This document shows positions 4,658 through 10,698 of a DNA stretch of 64,000 nt, one piece after another (positions within the stretch are counted from its first letter, which is position 1; the number at the start of each line of letters is the position of its first letter). Below the pieces are notes generated by a model. The model did no database searches, was not told the origin of the DNA, and saw nothing but the letters and a program-made list of their open reading frames with translations. Source of the stretch: a virus (lineage: Duplodnaviria > Heunggongvirae > Uroviricota > Caudoviricetes); the IMG/VR virus record IMGVR_UViG_3300027375_000001. One strand, given 5' to 3'. The translations under genes and the position numbers were made by a program.

Positions 4658-5128
4658 TTATTCCCATGGAAATACAATCCATTCATCTAACTTCCATTCT
4701 GTGTTGAAAATATGCCGACATGGCCATTCGCACTTTCTTTTACGACCAATCGTGGCGACAATGATTCGTTCATGGATTTTATCTGTATTGATAAACGATC
4801 TGCACTCATGATCAATTCTCCAGATAATATTATTAATGACTTTTCCGGTATCCAGGACATCATCAAATATAACCAAGTACCTTTGAGAATTAAACAATGA
4901 AAGAAGATTAAGACGAATTAGATCTGTTTCATTAATTGCTGGTGGTTTGAATTCGGTGGATGTCAAATTTCGTATCGCATTGACTGTCATTGTGGCTACA
5001 GGCCACCCTCCATAATATGGTGCCAAAATTACAAAATCATTTAGCTTATCTGAATAATCTGTAACGAGCGTTTGTGCTAATGATTCAGTACTTTCCTCTA
5101 CGTAATCCCAAGATAGATAAGTCTTCAT
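4658..5128 (-). CDS. Type I phosphoribosyltransferase (Gpt/Hpt-like)
   Basis: N-terminal LSWDYVE, PRPP-binding loop LVIFDDVLDTGK and C-terminal WIVFPWE typical of xanthine-guanine PRTases. Confidence 0.85.
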   Translation of the reverse strand: MKTYLSWDYVEESTESLAQTLVTDYSDKLNDFVILAPYYGGWPVATMTVNAIRNLTSTEFKPPAINETDLIRLNLLSLFNSQRYLVIFDDVLDTGKVINNIIWRIDHECRSFINTDKIHERIIVATIGRKRKCEWPCRHIFNTEWKLDEWIVFPWE

Positions 5129-5130
5129 TG

Positions 5131-5694
5131 TTACCAGAGCTCCTGATCTAGTTTAGCTAAAATATATTCAACATAACTATCGGGGTTACCTTGCGGAACT
5201 TGCCAAATAGGCGTAGAAAGAGTGCTTGTAATATCTAGCCACCGATAGCCAATATCTGACATTAGATTGTAGATCTGCTCCTGCCATTGAACATCCAATG
5301 ACCGAAATCCGTCATCTTTCATTTCAAGAGGTGGTAATACGAAAATATGATCATATTGATGCATAGTCTCCGCATAAATTTCATAGAATGTTTTCCATTC
5401 CTTGAATGAATATTTTCCAATGAGATAATCATGCGTAGCGTACGTAAACGCATCTAATGCACCCCTGTCGGTGATGAACTTCGGATGTCTATAGATATTA
5501 CGATGATGCTCCTCAAGAATAGTCATCTGAGATTCATAATTCGAATCTTGATTGATTTTAATATTCTTTTCTTTCACCAGCCTTCTTACAGGCTCATCAA
5601 TAAAATGATACTGGTCAAAATTACCGCACTCTTTAAGTTTGCGCATTAGAGTACTTTTACCCGCACATTGGGGTCCGCTAATACAAATTTTCAT
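5131..5694 (-). CDS. P-loop nucleotide (NMP) kinase-like protein, thymidylate kinase/AAA_28 type
   Basis: ICISGPQCAGKSTL P-loop, FIDEPVR, FITDRGALDAFTY, YDHIFVLPP...DDGFRS. Confidence 0.8.
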   Translation of the reverse strand: MKICISGPQCAGKSTLMRKLKECGNFDQYHFIDEPVRRLVKEKNIKINQDSNYESQMTILEEHHRNIYRHPKFITDRGALDAFTYATHDYLIGKYSFKEWKTFYEIYAETMHQYDHIFVLPPLEMKDDGFRSLDVQWQEQIYNLMSDIGYRWLDITSTLSTPIWQVPQGNPDSYVEYILAKLDQELW

Positions 5695-6485
5695 TCAGTA
5701 ATATATCTAAAGGTTTTTATGTTATCAAGTATAATTTGCAGTTGTTCATCAGAAACCTCGCTATGAATCAAATCATTCATTTTGATTTTCTTCTTCTGAT
5801 AAATTCCCAATGCGTCATATTTAATACCAAGCAATCCGTGTAGAATTGGGCTTGATGTGTCTACAGAATTAATATCATTATATCCTCGATATCCCAATTC
5901 AATTGGCAAAGAACATCCGAGCAAATGATGATAGCAATCCGATTTCCATACTCCTGTTTCTTTGAGATGTTTCACAAATTGAATTCTGCCATTTGCTTGA
6001 TCCCAGTCTCTAGTCTCTGAATCTTTAACAAAGAAATCATGATTGAATCCGATGGCGATATTTCTAATGCCATTTTTGTAATATGCTACATAACACTCGG
6101 TCAGCTCATCCATTGATTGGCCTTGCACAACTGCCATTGGTAACAAATTACGTGGAGACCTGTTGAATTTGTCATGATATGTCGACATCCAAACCCTCGC
6201 ATTATGAATACTGTCTTCTTTATCTCCCAGAACATCTGGCAAGATGTACCTAGTAGGATTCAATCCCTGCACATGTACTGCATATTTATCCCAATCAAAA
6301 GCATGCCCTAGTTCAAATATACTGTTATCAAGTATTAGCTGATTGACTGGAATCTTGCTTTTGCTGTAGAAATGGTCTTTATATTCTTGTGATTCATCTA
6401 AAAGATGAACTAGAACATATTCATAGTGCGTTACTTTCTGTACTTGTTTTAATATTGCTATTGGTGCTTCGTGTGCTATTTTCAT
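5691..6485 (-). CDS. tRNA-guanine transglycosylase (TGT)-fold protein, DpdA-like
   Basis: TGT motifs in the correct order: ILDNSIFELG, ILPDV, MAVVQG, IAIG, HHLLG, SVDTSSP (nucleophile Asp). No C-terminal zinc site. Confidence 0.75.
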   Translation of the reverse strand: MKIAHEAPIAILKQVQKVTHYEYVLVHLLDESQEYKDHFYSKSKIPVNQLILDNSIFELGHAFDWDKYAVHVQGLNPTRYILPDVLGDKEDSIHNARVWMSTYHDKFNRSPRNLLPMAVVQGQSMDELTECYVAYYKNGIRNIAIGFNHDFFVKDSETRDWDQANGRIQFVKHLKETGVWKSDCYHHLLGCSLPIELGYRGYNDINSVDTSSPILHGLLGIKYDALGIYQKKKIKMNDLIHSEVSDEQLQIILDNIKTFRYITE

Positions 6486-8839
6486 AAGGCAAAAAGATCT
6501 AAAAAATCACATTGATATTGTCTGCTCATGTCTGGAATTTGCCAGCCGATACAACTATACACTCTTTCAATGCAAGGTGCAACTAGCTTCTCAAACATTT
6601 TTTCTGTGTCGATTTTAATGTCGAACTCTGGTGGGATTGTGTCATTAAATCCAATACATTTGAGCCCGTATTTGTTTTGGGCTGTGTATACATACCGAAT
6701 CTTTGTGCCCGAAATGATTGGCATGTATTTTGATTTCAAATTCAATGTATTAATTAATGTATTGAAATAAATCGCCGATTTGACATGAATAGGAGTATGC
6801 AATGCAATATTGAATCCGTTCGACTGTGAAGCATATTTCTCATAATCTTTAATAGAGGAACGCAATGCAATATCATCAATTGGTAAGGTCTTGAAACTCT
6901 CATAACACTCTCTATACTTTGCGTCAGTAATCGCACGATCTTTTGATTTAAACGCGGTCGTAATGATATCCTTCATCAACTTCTTAACAGCATTTGAATA
7001 TGTACTGCGCTGAACTTCAACACCAACATATTTGTATTTGTGTTTGTTTCTTTTGCCATCATACCTCACACTAAGAATATACCGTTTCTTTTCCAAGAAA
7101 AGACCAACATCACAAATTGATTCTCTCTTGAAGAAGTATCGCGGATCTACTGAATGTAATGTATTGCGCGCCCAATGATTAATTTTATCATTGATGAATG
7201 ACTGTAGTGTATCCGTTGCTGCAACGCATTCTTCTGTAACGTCTCCGTTTTCCTTTAAGATCGGAATATTATGTTTTGTGAGGTAATCTTTAATAGTTAA
7301 ATAAACCGAATCTGTGTCTCCATATACGATATAATCCTTATCCGGCAAACCATTTTCCTCGACAAAGAATTTATTAACAATCGATGCTGCTTGTTTAATA
7401 ACCGCCTGCCCTGTTTCCGTAATACTTGCAGCCATATCAATATCATAGAACGGACTGTATTTGTTCGCATAAGTACCATACGCAGAATTCAAGAAAATCT
7501 TGATTGTGTACTGCATCTGATCCAAATGCTTAATCTTATGTTTAATTTCTGGTGTTACTTGCTGTGATTCAAGCTGTTCAATTTGGTTTTGGATAACAAC
7601 CCGTTCTTGATAAAGTGAATCAATAAAAGTCGGACAAATGCCTTTGACATCTTGACGATACAAAACACCTGCTTGTGATAATGCAAGCCTTCCTTTTGTA
7701 CAAAATTCCTCAAGCTGGTCTATGGTAAATACTTGTTCTTTTTTGTTGATAAATCTTACTTTGCATTCGGTGTCATCCCTGTAAATGATTTTACCGATTT
7801 TTGTTTCCGGTGAAAGATTCAGGGTGATGATCGTATTTGGATATAGGGAGTTGGCGTCAAATGATACAACTGCTTCATTCAACCCACGCTGCGGTTCTCG
7901 GACATATCCACCAACATAATCCTCTTGTGTTGCAACTGCATTGAATGTCGGAATGATTTTATTCATGCGATTAGCTTCCTTGCACATCGCACCAGTCACT
8001 ATCATAATTTTACCCAATGAGTCTTCGATTTTGGTAAATCCTTTATAAGCTAAGAATCTCGCAATAGTAACATAATTCAATTTTTCGTCCAACAATCTGA
8101 CAAGGTTTACGTCATGAATATTGTAATGAACAAATGAATTCCAATCGCTTTCAGCAAGCGCTGCCAAATCCGACGCATTGTGGGCCAATTTACCAATTTC
8201 AAGCTCTGCTGCTGCAATGTTGTTAAGAGAATATGAATCTTGTTCTCCTCTACTAAAGGTCTTGTACAAGTCCATATAATCAAGACAAGTCATTCCTCGA
8301 ATATACCACTTATTAATTTCTCTGCCAAACTTTGTAGCAATTCCTTGTCGAACATAAAGCTTGCGCACAGGAGAGAGCATCTTTGCTTCATCCTCTCCCA
8401 AAACATAAGAAATCCGATTAATGATATATGGAATATCAAACCCTTCAATATTCCATCCGGTTACTGCATCTGGATAATCTTTAGACCAAAACTCTAGAAA
8501 TTTTTGGAGCAACTCCGTTTCGGTTCTACAATAGGTATAATGGATTCTCTGAACATCCAACTCTTTAATTCCTTGCGATGCGAACGCGGCGTTGATGCCA
8601 GATTTTTCGTACGGATGTAAACCCCAACTATAAAAGCTTTCAGATATGTTATCATAAATTGTGATTACGTTGATTGGATGTTTTGCTTCGTCTGCTTCTG
8701 GAAATTCTGACTGATGAGTATAGCATGAATTATGATATGAAGTCCATTCCTTTGTCTCTTCGTCCCAGATTTCATATTGCTCAAGTAGTTGCGGATTTCC
8801 ACGGATTTCACCCAATGTTGTTTCAATTACTTCATTCAT
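6482..8839 (-). CDS. gp43: DNA polymerase family B, C-terminal fragment (ExoII/III plus polymerase domain)
   Basis: TGWNIEGFDIPY (ExoII), YNIHDV (ExoIII), SFDANSLYP, KIFLNSAYG, YGDTDS. ExoI is absent from this ORF. Confidence 0.95.
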   Translation of the reverse strand: MNEVIETTLGEIRGNPQLLEQYEIWDEETKEWTSYHNSCYTHQSEFPEADEAKHPINVITIYDNISESFYSWGLHPYEKSGINAAFASQGIKELDVQRIHYTYCRTETELLQKFLEFWSKDYPDAVTGWNIEGFDIPYIINRISYVLGEDEAKMLSPVRKLYVRQGIATKFGREINKWYIRGMTCLDYMDLYKTFSRGEQDSYSLNNIAAAELEIGKLAHNASDLAALAESDWNSFVHYNIHDVNLVRLLDEKLNYVTIARFLAYKGFTKIEDSLGKIMIVTGAMCKEANRMNKIIPTFNAVATQEDYVGGYVREPQRGLNEAVVSFDANSLYPNTIITLNLSPETKIGKIIYRDDTECKVRFINKKEQVFTIDQLEEFCTKGRLALSQAGVLYRQDVKGICPTFIDSLYQERVVIQNQIEQLESQQVTPEIKHKIKHLDQMQYTIKIFLNSAYGTYANKYSPFYDIDMAASITETGQAVIKQAASIVNKFFVEENGLPDKDYIVYGDTDSVYLTIKDYLTKHNIPILKENGDVTEECVAATDTLQSFINDKINHWARNTLHSVDPRYFFKRESICDVGLFLEKKRYILSVRYDGKRNKHKYKYVGVEVQRSTYSNAVKKLMKDIITTAFKSKDRAITDAKYRECYESFKTLPIDDIALRSSIKDYEKYASQSNGFNIALHTPIHVKSAIYFNTLINTLNLKSKYMPIISGTKIRYVYTAQNKYGLKCIGFNDTIPPEFDIKIDTEKMFEKLVAPCIERVYSCIGWQIPDMSRQYQCDFLDLFAL

Positions 8840-9008
8840 TGTTTCGGTAGTGTATCATGCGTTTTCTTGTGCATGGATTAATTTTCGATAAATAGATTTC
8901 AAATTCTTCGTCTGACATTTTTTTAAGTCTTGACGATGTTAATTGTTTTTGGTTTGTTTTGACTCCTTTTTTTGCTTTAGATATTGCTTCCCCGCGTTTT
9001 TTGTGTGT
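8832..9008 (-). pseudogene. Remnant 3' end of a probable free-standing homing endonuclease gene
   Basis: Open frame with no start at its 5' end: THKKRGEAISKAKKGVKTNQKQLTSSRLKKMSDEEFEIYLSKINPCTRKRMIHYRNNE*. It has a NUMOD3-like 'RGEAISKAKKG' motif, and its TGA overlaps the gp43C start (ATGAATGA). Confidence 0.45.
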
Positions 9009-9402
9009 CTATCTTTTTGCGTATTTTGACTTTTTTATCATTTTTATACTTTGCAGTATAAACTTCAATATCCAAATAAAATGTTTTGAATGGCAAATGA
9101 GACCAATCAAATTCTTTATCGCGATAAAGATCAAGTAAAAATTGTTGCTCTGCTCTCAAGTTATAGAACACACGACGAATGCCTGCATCCTTTACATATT
9201 GATTTCTTGCTGATTCGTTTTTGAATACAATCTTTTTAAGGTTGGTATTGAAAAGACTTTTTGCATCATACTGAGCACTGTTTGTCTCTACATACAAGAA
9301 TGGCTCATACTCAAAATCATACATTTTGCGTTTGCCATTTTTATCCCAACTCCACAAGAAAATCTTCTTGCGGCTATTGTCATAGTAAACATTTCTCCAC
9401 AT
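8977..9402 (-). CDS. gp43: DNA polymerase family B, N-terminal fragment (N-domain plus ExoI)
   Basis: MWRNVYY...YEPFLYVE...RRVFYNLRAEQQFLLDLY is a gp43-like N-terminus. ExoI FYLDIEV is followed by a basic tail and a stop. Confidence 0.9.
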   Translation of the reverse strand: MWRNVYYDNSRKKIFLWSWDKNGKRKMYDFEYEPFLYVETNSAQYDAKSLFNTNLKKIVFKNESARNQYVKDAGIRRVFYNLRAEQQFLLDLYRDKEFDWSHLPFKTFYLDIEVYTAKYKNDKKVKIRKKIDTQKTRGSNI

Positions 9403-9441
9403 GAGATATCATAACATGTGGTGGCTCATTAATCAAGCAAA

Positions 9442-10698
9442 TTATACATTGAATCCATTATTAGCGATGGCTGGTCTATTTTCGGTTGGCATCTTGAACA
9501 GCATCTCAACATGTTCATCAAGATGGTCATCTAGCCATCTCTTCTCTGCAAATTTGCGCGCCTTCACTGATTGCTTAAGGTATTCATTTCTATCTTTAAG
9601 CAGTGTTTCTAATTTAGAAATCATTTCATCGCCTGTTTTGAATTTGAACGGCGCCTCTTGGTATGGTTCCATGTCTTGATATACTCCGGGAATACCTAAT
9701 GCACCAGCCTCAAGCATTTTGATATCCGATTTTGCACGATTGAATTCATTACGTGCGAGTGGTGCGATTACGGCATTGATATTAAGAGATCCAAATGTTC
9801 TTGGCATTTCGTAAATGTTTACCCACGGCACGTGAATAATTTCTTTTCGATTTACAAAGGGCAGCAATCTCATCGGAATGCCACCCATAAATACCCACTG
9901 AAACTTATTCCGCGTTTTGATAATTGCTTCAATAACATGTGCAAAGTCATCTTGTTGATTCGCAGTATTAGCCGGGTCAAAATGAGTGCCAGATCCCATA
10001 TACCCGATTATTGGTTTCTTTTTATTTTTGACGTAATTCTTGTCAATCTTAATCGGGTCATAAAAATCATGAAGCCAGAATTTAGGGGCATAGTTTGGAA
10101 TGACGTTGATTTCTTGCTTGCCTGATTTTTTCTTATAGTAATCTCTCATGTATGGAGAGACTACACACATTTCATCACATAGATTAATAATTTCTATAAT
10201 ATTACTTCTAATTTGGGGATCTGTAAATGCAGGTCTGCTTGTGTTGTATAGGGGGATATCTTCGGAGAATACAACATCATCCACTTCGTAGATCAATTTA
10301 AATCCAAACTCTTTTTGCATTGATTTCAAGAATTTAACAAACATGAGTTGTTCGTTAGTTGCTTGTCTTTGTAATTTGATAGCATTTACTGGTCTGTAAA
10401 AATTGGGATCCGTATTCATTTGTGTCAACCCATTGACTACTGTTTTATTATACCCATTCATTAGCAATTCTGGCCATGACATTCTCCATAATCCACACCC
10501 ACCATAATCAGCATAGAAATGAATAGCTCTCTTGAGGCCCGCACCTGGAGGTTCAGTAGTATTGACAACCTGTTGAGAATTTCTCAACTGCTCTGTTTGT
10601 TGATCCATCCTATGGCGGAAGAATTCTGGATTATAATTTCCAAATGCGGGCTTGCCGAAAACACTACCATGAATATGTGGCTGGGTATTAAAATGCAT
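9442..10698 (-). CDS. GT-B fold glycosyltransferase (GT4-like)
   Basis: YADYGGCGLWRMSWP, IYEVDDVVF, IGYMGSGTH, APLARNEFNRAKSDIKMLEAGALGIP. Confidence 0.8.
   Translation of the reverse strand: MHFNTQPHIHGSVFGKPAFGNYNPEFFRHRMDQQTEQLRNSQQVVNTTEPPGAGLKRAIHFYADYGGCGLWRMSWPELLMNGYNKTVVNGLTQMNTDPNFYRPVNAIKLQRQATNEQLMFVKFLKSMQKEFGFKLIYEVDDVVFSEDIPLYNTSRPAFTDPQIRSNIIEIINLCDEMCVVSPYMRDYYKKKSGKQEINVIPNYAPKFWLHDFYDPIKIDKNYVKNKKKPIIGYMGSGTHFDPANTANQQDDFAHVIEAIIKTRNKFQWVFMGGIPMRLLPFVNRKEIIHVPWVNIYEMPRTFGSLNINAVIAPLARNEFNRAKSDIKMLEAGALGIPGVYQDMEPYQEAPFKFKTGDEMISKLETLLKDRNEYLKQSVKARKFAEKRWLDDHLDEHVEMLFKMPTENRPAIANNGFNV

What the first reader, a model, noticed from the sequence alone, without database searches (positions are those of the whole stretch)
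6482..9402. DNA polymerase split inside the proofreading domain, with complementary charged docking tags on both halves
Seen: ExoI (FYLDIEV) ends the 141-aa N-gene, while ExoII, ExoIII and all polymerase motifs are in the 785-aa C-gene. In unsplit gp43-like enzymes DIEV runs almost directly into 'xEFP....HPINVIT'. Here 25 extra residues follow it (AKYKNDKKVKIRKKIDTQKTRGSNI; 10 K/R, 2 D). About 43 extra residues precede SEFPEADEAKHP (MNEVIETTLGEIRGNPQLLEQYEIWDEETKEWTSYHNSCYTHQ; 9 D/E, 2 K/R, aromatic-rich). An in-frame TGA six codons before the C-gene ATG means one sequencing indel cannot rejoin the halves. Known: split T4-family gp43 genes and composite active sites formed after homing-endonuclease insertion exist. 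Inference: the two tags form a dedicated non-splicing, electrostatic/beta-strand association module that rebuilds the exonuclease site in trans. It may be a general 'split-gene rescue' domain that tolerates mobile-element insertion and could serve as a protein-pairing tag.
Basis: partly seen in the sequence, partly recalled or inferred. Interest (0 to 1): 0.88.

Follow-up and report, generated by a model that had tools for sequence, protein, structure and literature searches.

The report
Endonuclease-split phage DNA polymerase with clasp
The only DNA polymerase gene of this uncultured river T4-like phage was cut in two by a selfish endonuclease gene, now a 173-base stump; the charged "tags" are the two halves of a small mobile mini-domain that probably clasps the pieces together.

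Summary
The N-gene (8977-9402, 141 aa) ends just after ExoI. The C-gene (6482-8839, 785 aa) carries ExoII, ExoIII and all polymerase motifs.

The 173 nt between the halves are the 3' stump of a homing endonuclease gene (HEG). Read in a third frame, it is 58% identical to the C-terminus of an intact HNH HEG at the same site in a relative (E 7e-18). It is 49% identical to a GIY-YIG HEG at that site in another.

The last 11 residues of the N tag are an out-of-frame reading of this stump.

The real tags, the N tag and the 43-aa acidic C tag, are halves of one roughly 58-aa mini-domain:
- It is contiguous and in frame in a 99%-identical relative.
- It is absent from a 97%-identical relative.
- It is scattered across the polymerase tree (AU test rejects one clade, p 1e-9).

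AlphaFold folds it confidently, and the break lies in its first hairpin turn. Co-folding supports reassembly (0.91 against 0.01 for the best control).

A profile search found the mini-domain only in PolB, so it is not a general rescue tag.

The closest precedent is Aeh1 nrdA/mobE. This scan has noted the same site on other DNA.

The parts
8977..9402 (-). gp43 N-half gene (141 aa): N-terminal domain, ExoI strand, N tag and a junk tail
   Evidence: ORF. A phmmer search found 166 homologues, all N-termini of PolB/gp43.
9061..9081 (-). ExoI motif FYLDIEV (residues 108-114)
   Evidence: D111, I112 and E113 are invariant in alignment A4.
9013..9060 (-). Conserved basic N tag YTAKYKNDKKVKIRKK (residues 115-130). 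It holds strand beta-1 of the mini-domain.
   Evidence: The same ...KYKDDxx[VI]K[IV]R[KR]K ending occurs in 11 diverged N-halves. Beta-1 is residues 124-129 in the AF2 model of the unsplit allele. The tag lies in the predicted interface.
8980..9012 (-). Non-conserved tail IDTQKTRGSNI, produced when the N-gene frame runs into the endonuclease remnant. The stop codon is at 8977-8979.
   Evidence: DNA alignment with L004 and frame analysis. It is absent from other N-halves and is not named in the predicted interface.
8832..9008 (-). 3' remnant of a homing endonuclease gene: 58 codons plus TGA, in a third frame. It encodes only the C-terminal DNA-binding module. Its TGA overlaps the C-gene start (ATGAATGA).
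   Evidence: BLASTP gives 58% identity, E 7e-18, to residues 201-255 of the 262-aa HNH HEG of L014. It gives 49% identity, E 2e-13, to residues 162-216 of the 217-aa GIY-YIG HEG of L011. The 173 nt at 8840-9012 are absent from L004.
8832..8918 (-). 28-codon ORF from an internal Met of the remnant (MSDEEF...). It is a possible leader for termination-reinitiation at the C-gene ATG. This role is inferred.
   Evidence: There is no Shine-Dalgarno sequence before either ATG. The same ATGAxTGA overlap occurs in L014.
8711..8839 (-). Acidic C tag (residues 1-43): strand beta-2, two short helices and the beta-3/beta-4 hairpin of the mini-domain
   Evidence: It is homologous to the starts of C-halves P0163, P0205, L011, L015 and L017, and to the insert of unsplit alleles. 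W32 is invariant.
6482..8839 (-). gp43 C-half gene (785 aa). Motifs: ExoII at 8426-8458, ExoIII at 8108-8125, motif A at 7838-7864, motif B at 7475-7501, motif C at 7307-7324.
   Evidence: Pfam PF03104 and PF00136. RB69 gp43 matches at E 6e-73. It is the only PolB in the 195,888-bp genome.

Best explanation
This is a 'gene in pieces' made by a homing endonuclease.

The insert. A subset of T4-like gp43 polymerases carries a roughly 58-aa mini-domain between the ExoI strand and the FPxP loop. Its layout is beta-1/beta-2 hairpin, two short helices, then beta-3/beta-4 hairpin.

The split. Free-standing endonuclease genes insert into the beta-1/beta-2 turn. They have HNH or GIY-YIG nuclease heads on a shared C-terminal DNA-binding module. 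The cassette supplies a stop for the N-half and a start codon for the C-half.

This window. The endonuclease gene has lost its 5' three quarters. Its last 58 codons remain and still overlap the C-half ATG, so the split persists without a working endonuclease.

Inferred function. The two polypeptides reassemble without covalent joining:
- The ExoI strand of the N-half slots into the exonuclease beta-sheet of the C-half.
- The N-terminal domain packs on as in unsplit gp43.
- The basic beta-1 strand (KVKIRKK) pairs with the acidic remainder of the mini-domain as an extra clasp.
No RNA or protein splicing is involved.

Inferred mobility. The mini-domain travels horizontally with the endonuclease by co-conversion during homing. 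This would explain its patchy distribution.
For: Shown:
- Remnant homology to intact HEGs at the same site. Intact cassettes occur in L010, L011, L014 and L015/16.
- An independent parallel exists: L017 keeps a 121-nt 3' remnant.
- L004, at 99% identity, has the insert contiguous and in frame.
- P0152, at 97% identity, has no insert. Its first 114 aa are identical, and substitutions sit at the junction: FSP|SEFPEAEE against YT[58 aa]SEFPEADE.
- The same clustering of changes next to the junction is seen in P0232 against L014.
- The 13 insert-bearing rows need 11 changes on the tree, no fewer than shuffled labels. The AU test rejects a single clade, with delta lnL 1095 and p 1.3e-9.
- The AF2 model of unsplit L004 residues 1-440 has pLDDT 91.4, with the insert folded at 81-91. 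The insert alone gives pLDDT 80 with the same secondary structure.
- Co-fold of the halves: ipSAE 0.91 against a best control of 0.01. That mark was reached by 58 of 80 solved complexes and 2 of 110 mismatched pairs. The runs agree on at least 90% of contacts, and partner pLDDT is at least 83. The interface covers N residues 104-130 and C residues 2-10, 12-13, 18, 21-27, 39-47, 54-65 and 121-129. This may pass partly from memory of solved single-chain gp43.
- The charge pattern is conserved.
- This is the only PolB in a complete genome.
- A contig from an RNA library spans 8717-9114 unspliced, with no joints.
Against: - No experiment shows that the halves bind or proofread.
- The C-half ATG has no recognisable Shine-Dalgarno sequence, and its upstream leader ORF has none either. 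How it is translated is therefore open.
- In Aeh1 NrdA, the precedent, the tails were not needed for the two pieces to bind each other. They were needed for a higher assembly step (PMC3045599). A clasp role here is therefore not a given.
- The native interface (ExoI strand plus N-terminal domain) gave the lowest-error contacts in the co-fold and may suffice.
- The direction of events is unresolved: the mini-domain may have come first, or the tails may have fused after loss of the endonuclease.
- Repeated loss, rather than transfer, could also give a patchy distribution.
Confidence: 0.75

Rival explanations
1. The split and its endonuclease origin are as above, but the tags are passive passengers. 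The mini-domain is a tolerated surface insertion. The halves assemble entirely through the native gp43 interface, and the charge pattern is incidental.
For: The lowest-error contacts in the co-fold are between the ExoI strand and the exonuclease sheet, not the tags. Most gp43 lack the insert and work without it. Aeh1 NrdA pieces bound each other without their tails.
Against: The N tag is better conserved than the host protein, at 9-10 of 14 residues against 35-47% overall. Every split at this site lies in the same beta-turn. Opposite charges are conserved in all 12 N tails and 6 C tails. The tags are in the confident interface.
Confidence: 0.2
2. The tags are a very reduced split intein that still ligates the halves by protein trans-splicing.
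For: The window's C tag contains HN|S. About 14 of the top 50 rows of the fold search that does not rely on Foldseek are inteins, aligned from their N- to their C-ends, with Z of 2.2-3.9. The best Foldseek row is the VidaL intein at E 2.6. A first-stage note (e1-5436280) made the same suggestion.
Against: There is no conserved Cys/Ser/Thr at the N junction and no block B. Asn before Ser/Cys is seen in only 4 of 14 sequences. At 58 aa it is far below the roughly 130 aa of a HINT domain. Pfam gave no hit even at E 10. hhalign against the resident motif-C inteins gave a probability of 0.35%. All fold scores are below significance.
Confidence: 0.03
3. The polymerase gene is dead: the split is a pseudogenising lesion in a defective or decaying genome.
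For: The endonuclease is degraded, the N-gene reads into junk, and the C-gene has no clear ribosome binding site.
Against: Both ORFs are intact and about 99% identical to the unsplit L004, and all catalytic motifs are kept. It is the only PolB in a complete genome with terminal repeats. The same allele is held in many riverine runs and in RNA libraries. Many diverged lineages keep the same split.
Confidence: 0.04
4. The interruption is removed or skipped at the RNA or translation level, by a group I intron, by ribosomal bypassing as in T4 gene 60, or by frameshifting.
For: Introns and a bypass element are known in T4-like phage genes.
Against: No Rfam intron matched at E up to 10. An RNA-library contig covers 8717-9114 colinear with the DNA, and no joints were seen. 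The gap is coding sequence of a known protein family in a third frame. All three frames hold stops across the gap.
Confidence: 0.02

Closest known systems
Aeromonas phage Aeh1 nrdA-a / mobE / nrdA-b (Friedrich et al. 2007; Crona et al. 2011, PMC3045599)
   Same: An essential enzyme gene is cut inside a catalytic domain by a free-standing homing endonuclease. The pieces carry extra tails absent from unsplit homologues: basic on the N piece (pI 10.4) and acidic on the C piece (pI 3.8). There is no splicing, and a composite active site forms.
   Different: - The host gene is PolB, and the cut lies just after ExoI.
- The tails are conserved across many lineages, whereas the Aeh1 tails had no database matches.
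- They form one folded mini-domain that also exists unsplit.
- In this window the endonuclease is only a stump.
- Function has not been tested here.
Split gene 43 (43A / IC-UTS / seg-like HEG / 43B) of Aeromonas phages 44RR and 25 (Petrov, Ratnayaka and Karam 2010, cited in PMC2677866 and PMC8351571; details from my own knowledge)
   Same: T4-family gp43 is encoded as two cistrons. They are separated either by an untranslated spacer alone or by a GIY-YIG endonuclease gene, and they are proposed to form a two-subunit polymerase.
   Different: That split lies in the polymerase half, between the 43A and 43B products, not in the exonuclease domain. No conserved paired mini-domain is described there. 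The window's spacer is a recognisable endonuclease remnant.
Fractured genes with split inteins and an intervening free-standing endonuclease (Dassa et al. 2009, PMC2677866)
   Same: The layout is host N-part + short element, then an endonuclease gene, then short element + host C-part. It occurs in phage-like metagenomic DNA, and the element halves were proposed to associate electrostatically.
   Different: The element here lacks the intein catalytic residues and block B, and is less than half the size of a HINT domain. It matched no intein profile. The halves are expected to stay unligated.
Intronless homing by T4 Seg/Mob endonucleases (from my own knowledge; SegF is cited in PMC8351571)
   Same: A free-standing endonuclease spreads with co-conversion of flanking markers. 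Here substitutions cluster in the codons next to the insert.
   Different: Seg and Mob genes usually sit between genes. Here the cassette sits inside an essential ORF together with an in-frame peptide module.

Membership tests
T4-type family B DNA polymerase (gp43) | ExoI, ExoII, ExoIII and polymerase motifs A, B and C, in order | tested here: met
   ExoI is in the N-gene and the rest are in the C-gene. RB69 gp43 matches at E 6e-73.
Endonuclease-fragmented gene with element-derived tails (Aeh1 nrdA/mobE type) | A free-standing homing endonuclease gene lies between the two halves | tested here: met
   The window keeps only the last 58 codons. Intact HNH or GIY-YIG genes occupy the same site in L010, L011, L014 and L015.
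Endonuclease-fragmented gene with element-derived tails (Aeh1 nrdA/mobE type) | Extra tails at the break, oppositely charged and absent from unsplit, insert-less homologues | tested here: met
Endonuclease-fragmented gene with element-derived tails (Aeh1 nrdA/mobE type) | Tails are required for enzyme activity, and the pieces are not ligated | not testable with these tools
   Only a co-fold was possible. This needs co-expression, mass spectrometry and assays.
Split intein / fractured gene | N-terminal Cys/Ser nucleophile and block B (TxxH) | tested here: not met
   There is no conserved nucleophile after DIEVxx and no TxxH in 14 aligned sequences.
Split intein / fractured gene | C-terminal Asn followed by Cys/Ser/Thr | tested here: inconclusive
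   N|SCY occurs in the window, P0008, P0043 and P0048. It is absent from L011, L015, L017, P0054, P0132 and others.
Split intein / fractured gene | HINT fold detectable by profile or structure | tested here: inconclusive
   Pfam gave no hit and hhalign a probability of 0.35%. In the fold search, inteins are enriched among weak rows but Z is at most 3.9.
Split gp43 43A/43B of Aeromonas phages | Break between the 43A and 43B products, in the polymerase half | tested here: not met
   The break here comes after residue 130, just past ExoI. The position of the Aeromonas split is from my own knowledge.
Group I intron | Match to a ribozyme core and a spliced RNA form | tested here: not met
   There is no Rfam match at E up to 10. 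An RNA-library contig is colinear and no joints were seen (contigs only).

The most novel reading that the evidence does not exclude
The roughly 58-aa mini-domain and the endonuclease gene together form a self-contained mobile element, a 'spliceless intein'. It invades insert-less polB alleles by homing. It disrupts the endonuclease's own target by inserting coding sequence. It keeps the host enzyme alive not by RNA or protein splicing but by carrying its own two-piece charged beta-hairpin clasp. After the endonuclease decays, that clasp remains as a fused domain. It may descend from a HINT domain that lost splicing.
Probability: 0.35. Interest if true: 0.8.

Novelty: new variant of a known kind. 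Interest (0 to 1): 0.6.

Why it matters
Crona et al. (2011) proposed that tails brought by a mobile element could be a general way to neutralise gene fragmentation. They had one case, and their tails had no relatives.

Here the tails are a conserved, foldable pair seen at several stages in natural populations:
- an empty site;
- a contiguous insert;
- an insert split by an intact HNH or GIY-YIG endonuclease gene;
- an insert split by a stump.

This makes two questions testable. How does an essential replicative polymerase tolerate a break through its proofreading site? Do such modules move together with the endonuclease?

If it works, a natural 16 + 43 residue charged strand-complementation pair is also a candidate protein-pairing tag. 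For genome annotation, it shows that these paired ORFs are one functional polymerase.

Tried and rejected
- tblastn of the N-half against 50,697 phage records found no match. DNA search found only short polymerase-core hits. There is therefore no cultured close relative in that collection.
- Pfam and PHROGs searches of the insert and of the remnant peptide gave nothing meaningful.
- Duplication idea. phmmer had aligned C-tag residues 22-43 to RB69 residues 99-122, which include its ExoI. This suggested a degenerate duplicate of the ExoI hairpin. hhalign of the mini-domain profile against the ExoI region of insert-less gp43 matched only the shared FP anchor, at 1.3% probability, so I rejected it.
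- Intein relic idea. hhalign against six resident motif-C mini-inteins was negative. Fold searches gave only sub-threshold rows, the best being Z 4.1 to a KOW domain.
- ESM Atlas feature search of the insert scored at most 0.87, which is uninformative.
- The DNA of the contig encoding P0152 could not be fetched. The co-conversion tract was therefore judged from protein only.
- No second copy of the endonuclease was found in the phage's own genome.
- The promoter and terminator scan of 8600-9700 was at chance level.
- Similarity between L004's 12-nt linker (AKNS) and the end of the remnant was at chance level once the shared codons were excluded. The order of events between L004 and the window is therefore unresolved.
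- RNA-library contigs in X20 and X21 do not cover 8817-8879. This says nothing either way.
Full report
**What is there**

On the minus strand, a 141-aa ORF (8977-9402) and a 785-aa ORF (6482-8839) lie 137 nt apart in different frames.
- The first ORF ends shortly after the ExoI motif FYLDIEV (residues 108-114).
- The second matches PF03104 and PF00136. It aligns to RB69 gp43 (E 6e-73) through ExoII, ExoIII and motifs A and C.
- The window comes from a 195,888-bp IMG/VR virus record with direct terminal repeats. This is its only PolB.
- The nearest cultured polymerases, from cyanophage and vibriophage, are only about 31% identical.

**What the gap is**

Close relatives from IMG/VR settle the anatomy.
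- L002, L003 and L006 (79-81% identity) and L008 and L009 (42%) encode unsplit gp43 of about 858 aa. They read DIEVYSPxEFP, with no insert.
- L004 (99% identity) encodes one unsplit ORF. In it, the two "tags" form a single contiguous in-frame insert of about 58 aa between DIEVYT and SEFPE.
- Aligning the DNA shows that the window carries 173 extra bases (8840-9012) inside that insert.

Read in a third frame, those bases plus the next few give 58 codons and a TGA. This peptide is:
- 58% identical (E 7e-18) to the last 55 residues of a 262-aa HNH endonuclease that sits between the polymerase halves in L014;
- 49% identical (E 2e-13) to the end of a 217-aa GIY-YIG endonuclease at the same place in L011.

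L010 and L015/16 carry further HNH genes at this site. The two nuclease types thus share one C-terminal module, which I take to be the DNA-binding part.

The window therefore holds a 5'-truncated endonuclease gene.
- The N-gene frame runs into it, which produces the non-conserved tail IDTQKTRGSNI.
- The remnant's TGA overlaps the C-gene start (ATGAATGA), with the same geometry as in L014.
- L017 independently keeps a 121-nt 3' remnant in the same position. This suggests that the 3' end is retained because it carries the C-half's initiation region. That is an inference.

**What the tags are**

A phmmer search of 1.8 billion representative proteins with the N-half found 166 relatives.
- Eleven short N-halves, only 30-47% identical to the query, end in the same way: DIEx, 2-8 residues, then ...KYKDDxx[VI]K[IV]R[KR]K, then a stop within four residues.
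- C-halves (P0163, P0205, L011, L015, L017) begin with the matching acidic segment ...TLGE...YEVWDEExKxW...SCY.. before FP.
- Eight further unsplit polymerases carry the two parts fused.

AlphaFold2 on L004 residues 1-440, with a 44-row alignment, gave a mean pLDDT of 91.4. The insert is folded at 81-91:
- beta-1, residues 124-129;
- beta-2, residues 136-140;
- two short helices;
- beta-3, residues 154-158;
- beta-4, residues 163-165.

The insert alone folds the same way, with pLDDT 80. Every split falls in the beta-1/beta-2 turn. The "tags" are therefore two parts of one mini-domain.

The N tails are net +1 to +7 and the C tails net -4 to -8.

**Mobility**

- P0152 is 97% identical over the exonuclease region, and its first 114 aa are identical to L004, yet it has no insert. 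The differences sit at the junction: FSP|SEFPEAEE against YT[insert]SEFPEADE.
- P0232 (no insert) and L014 (split) are sisters. Their differences are concentrated in the dozen codons next to the insert.
- On a tree of 191 exonuclease-domain sequences, built without the insert columns, the 13 insert-bearing rows need 11 changes. At least 8 of these are forced by well-supported branches, and the shuffled mean is 12.7.
- On a 48-row IQ-TREE tree, holding them together costs 1095 log-likelihood units (AU p 1.3e-9).

The insert is thus gained or lost by recombination far more often than the host gene diverges. This is what homing with co-conversion predicts.

Which came first is unresolved: the fused mini-domain, or the split form that later re-fused.

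**How it probably works**

Co-folding the N-half with C-half residues 1-400, using my own alignments A4 and A5, scored 0.91 against a best control of 0.01.
- That mark was reached by 58 of 80 solved complexes and 2 of 110 mismatched pairs in calibration.
- The runs agree on at least 90% of contacts, and partner pLDDT is at least 83.
- The interface covers N residues 104-130 (the ExoI strand plus the conserved tag, but not the junk tail).
- On the C-half it covers residues 2-47, the strand at 54-65 and the ExoII strand at 121-129.

Single-chain gp43 structures are solved, so this pass may partly reflect memory of that fold.

I infer non-covalent reassembly. The ExoI strand completes the exonuclease sheet, and the basic beta-1 strand completes the acidic mini-domain as a clasp.

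**No sign of splicing**

- Rfam found no intron.
- An RNA-library contig spans 8717-9114 colinear with the DNA, with no joints. DNA carry-over in that library cannot be excluded.
- The insert lacks the intein nucleophile and block B, hit no intein profile, and is 58 aa long.

Fold searches gave nothing significant. Inteins are over-represented among the weak rows, at about 14 of the top 50 with Z of 2.2-3.9. I keep this only as a lead on origin.

**Comparison with what is known**

- The closest precedent is Aeh1 nrdA split by mobE. There, a basic C-terminal tail and an acidic N-terminal tail derived from the insertion are essential for activity, but not for the two pieces to bind each other. 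The authors predicted that similar tails exist elsewhere (PMC3045599).
- Split gp43 with an untranslated spacer or a seg-like gene is known in Aeromonas phages, at another site (cited in PMC2677866).
- Fractured genes with split inteins share the layout but not the chemistry.
- A profile of the mini-domain found only family B polymerases (the search is limited by shared words), so it is not a general rescue domain.
- Literature searches found no description of this ExoI-site module.
- Earlier notes of this scan describe the same site and "clasp" on other genomes, and the same allele in two other assemblies.

**Verdict**

It is an endonuclease-made split polymerase of a known kind. The new features are:
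- a conserved, foldable and mobile two-piece mini-domain;
- a decayed endonuclease stump;
- near-identical genomes that show the insert-free allele, the allele with the fused insert and the split allele with the stump.

Function of the clasp is untested.

Noticed in passing
L004:5525-6025 (about residues 644-808 of its gp43): The 99%-identical relative carries a roughly 165-aa mini-intein in polymerase motif C (YGDTDS|C...VHN|S; PF14890, E 2e-11). The window lacks it. This is a second mobile-element polymorphism in the same gene. P0048 and P0238, which also bear the ExoI insert, have an intein at the same site, as do the insert-less P0181, P0187 and P0213.
   Followed up: partly
L011:5251-5460: The polymerase of L011 is split a second time, into 502 aa and about 240 aa, with a gap of about 200 nt in the polymerase half. 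This gives three polymerase pieces in all.
   Followed up: no
P0157 residues about 130-345: In this unsplit gp43 of 1144 aa, about 210 low-complexity residues lie in frame exactly at the beta-1/beta-2 turn of the mini-domain. They may be a read-through of a decayed endonuclease gene. Its sister P0049 has no insert.
   Followed up: no
P0007, P0013, P0021, P0022, P0036, P0156, P0211, P0215 and others: Many relatives carry inserts of about 340-460 aa at the ExoII site (SGWN|C...HN|C) with LAGLIDADG-like motifs. This polymerase clade is a hotspot for mobile elements.
   Followed up: no
L011:3088-3741, L014:278-1066 and window 8832-9008: HNH-type and GIY-YIG-type endonucleases at the same polymerase site share one C-terminal module (...HKKRGEAISKxKKGxKTNQ...MSDEEF...). 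This is an example of nuclease-domain swapping on a common targeting domain.
   Followed up: partly
P0155 and P0156, residues about 116-126: Relatives at 67-69% identity have a short 9-aa insertion (TRKADGSRG) in the same ExoI-FP loop. The loop is variable even without the mini-domain.
   Followed up: no
window 4658-6485 (-): Directly downstream of the polymerase lie a 264-aa gene, a 187-aa P-loop kinase-like gene and a 156-aa gene. This order is conserved in L004 and in the P0152 contig. Another first-stage note reads them as a DpdA-like DNA-modification module. I did not examine this.
   Followed up: no
window 8996: One low-depth RNA-library contig (X21, depth 2.5) has an extra T after 8996, inside the junk tail of the N-gene. 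It is probably an error.
   Followed up: no
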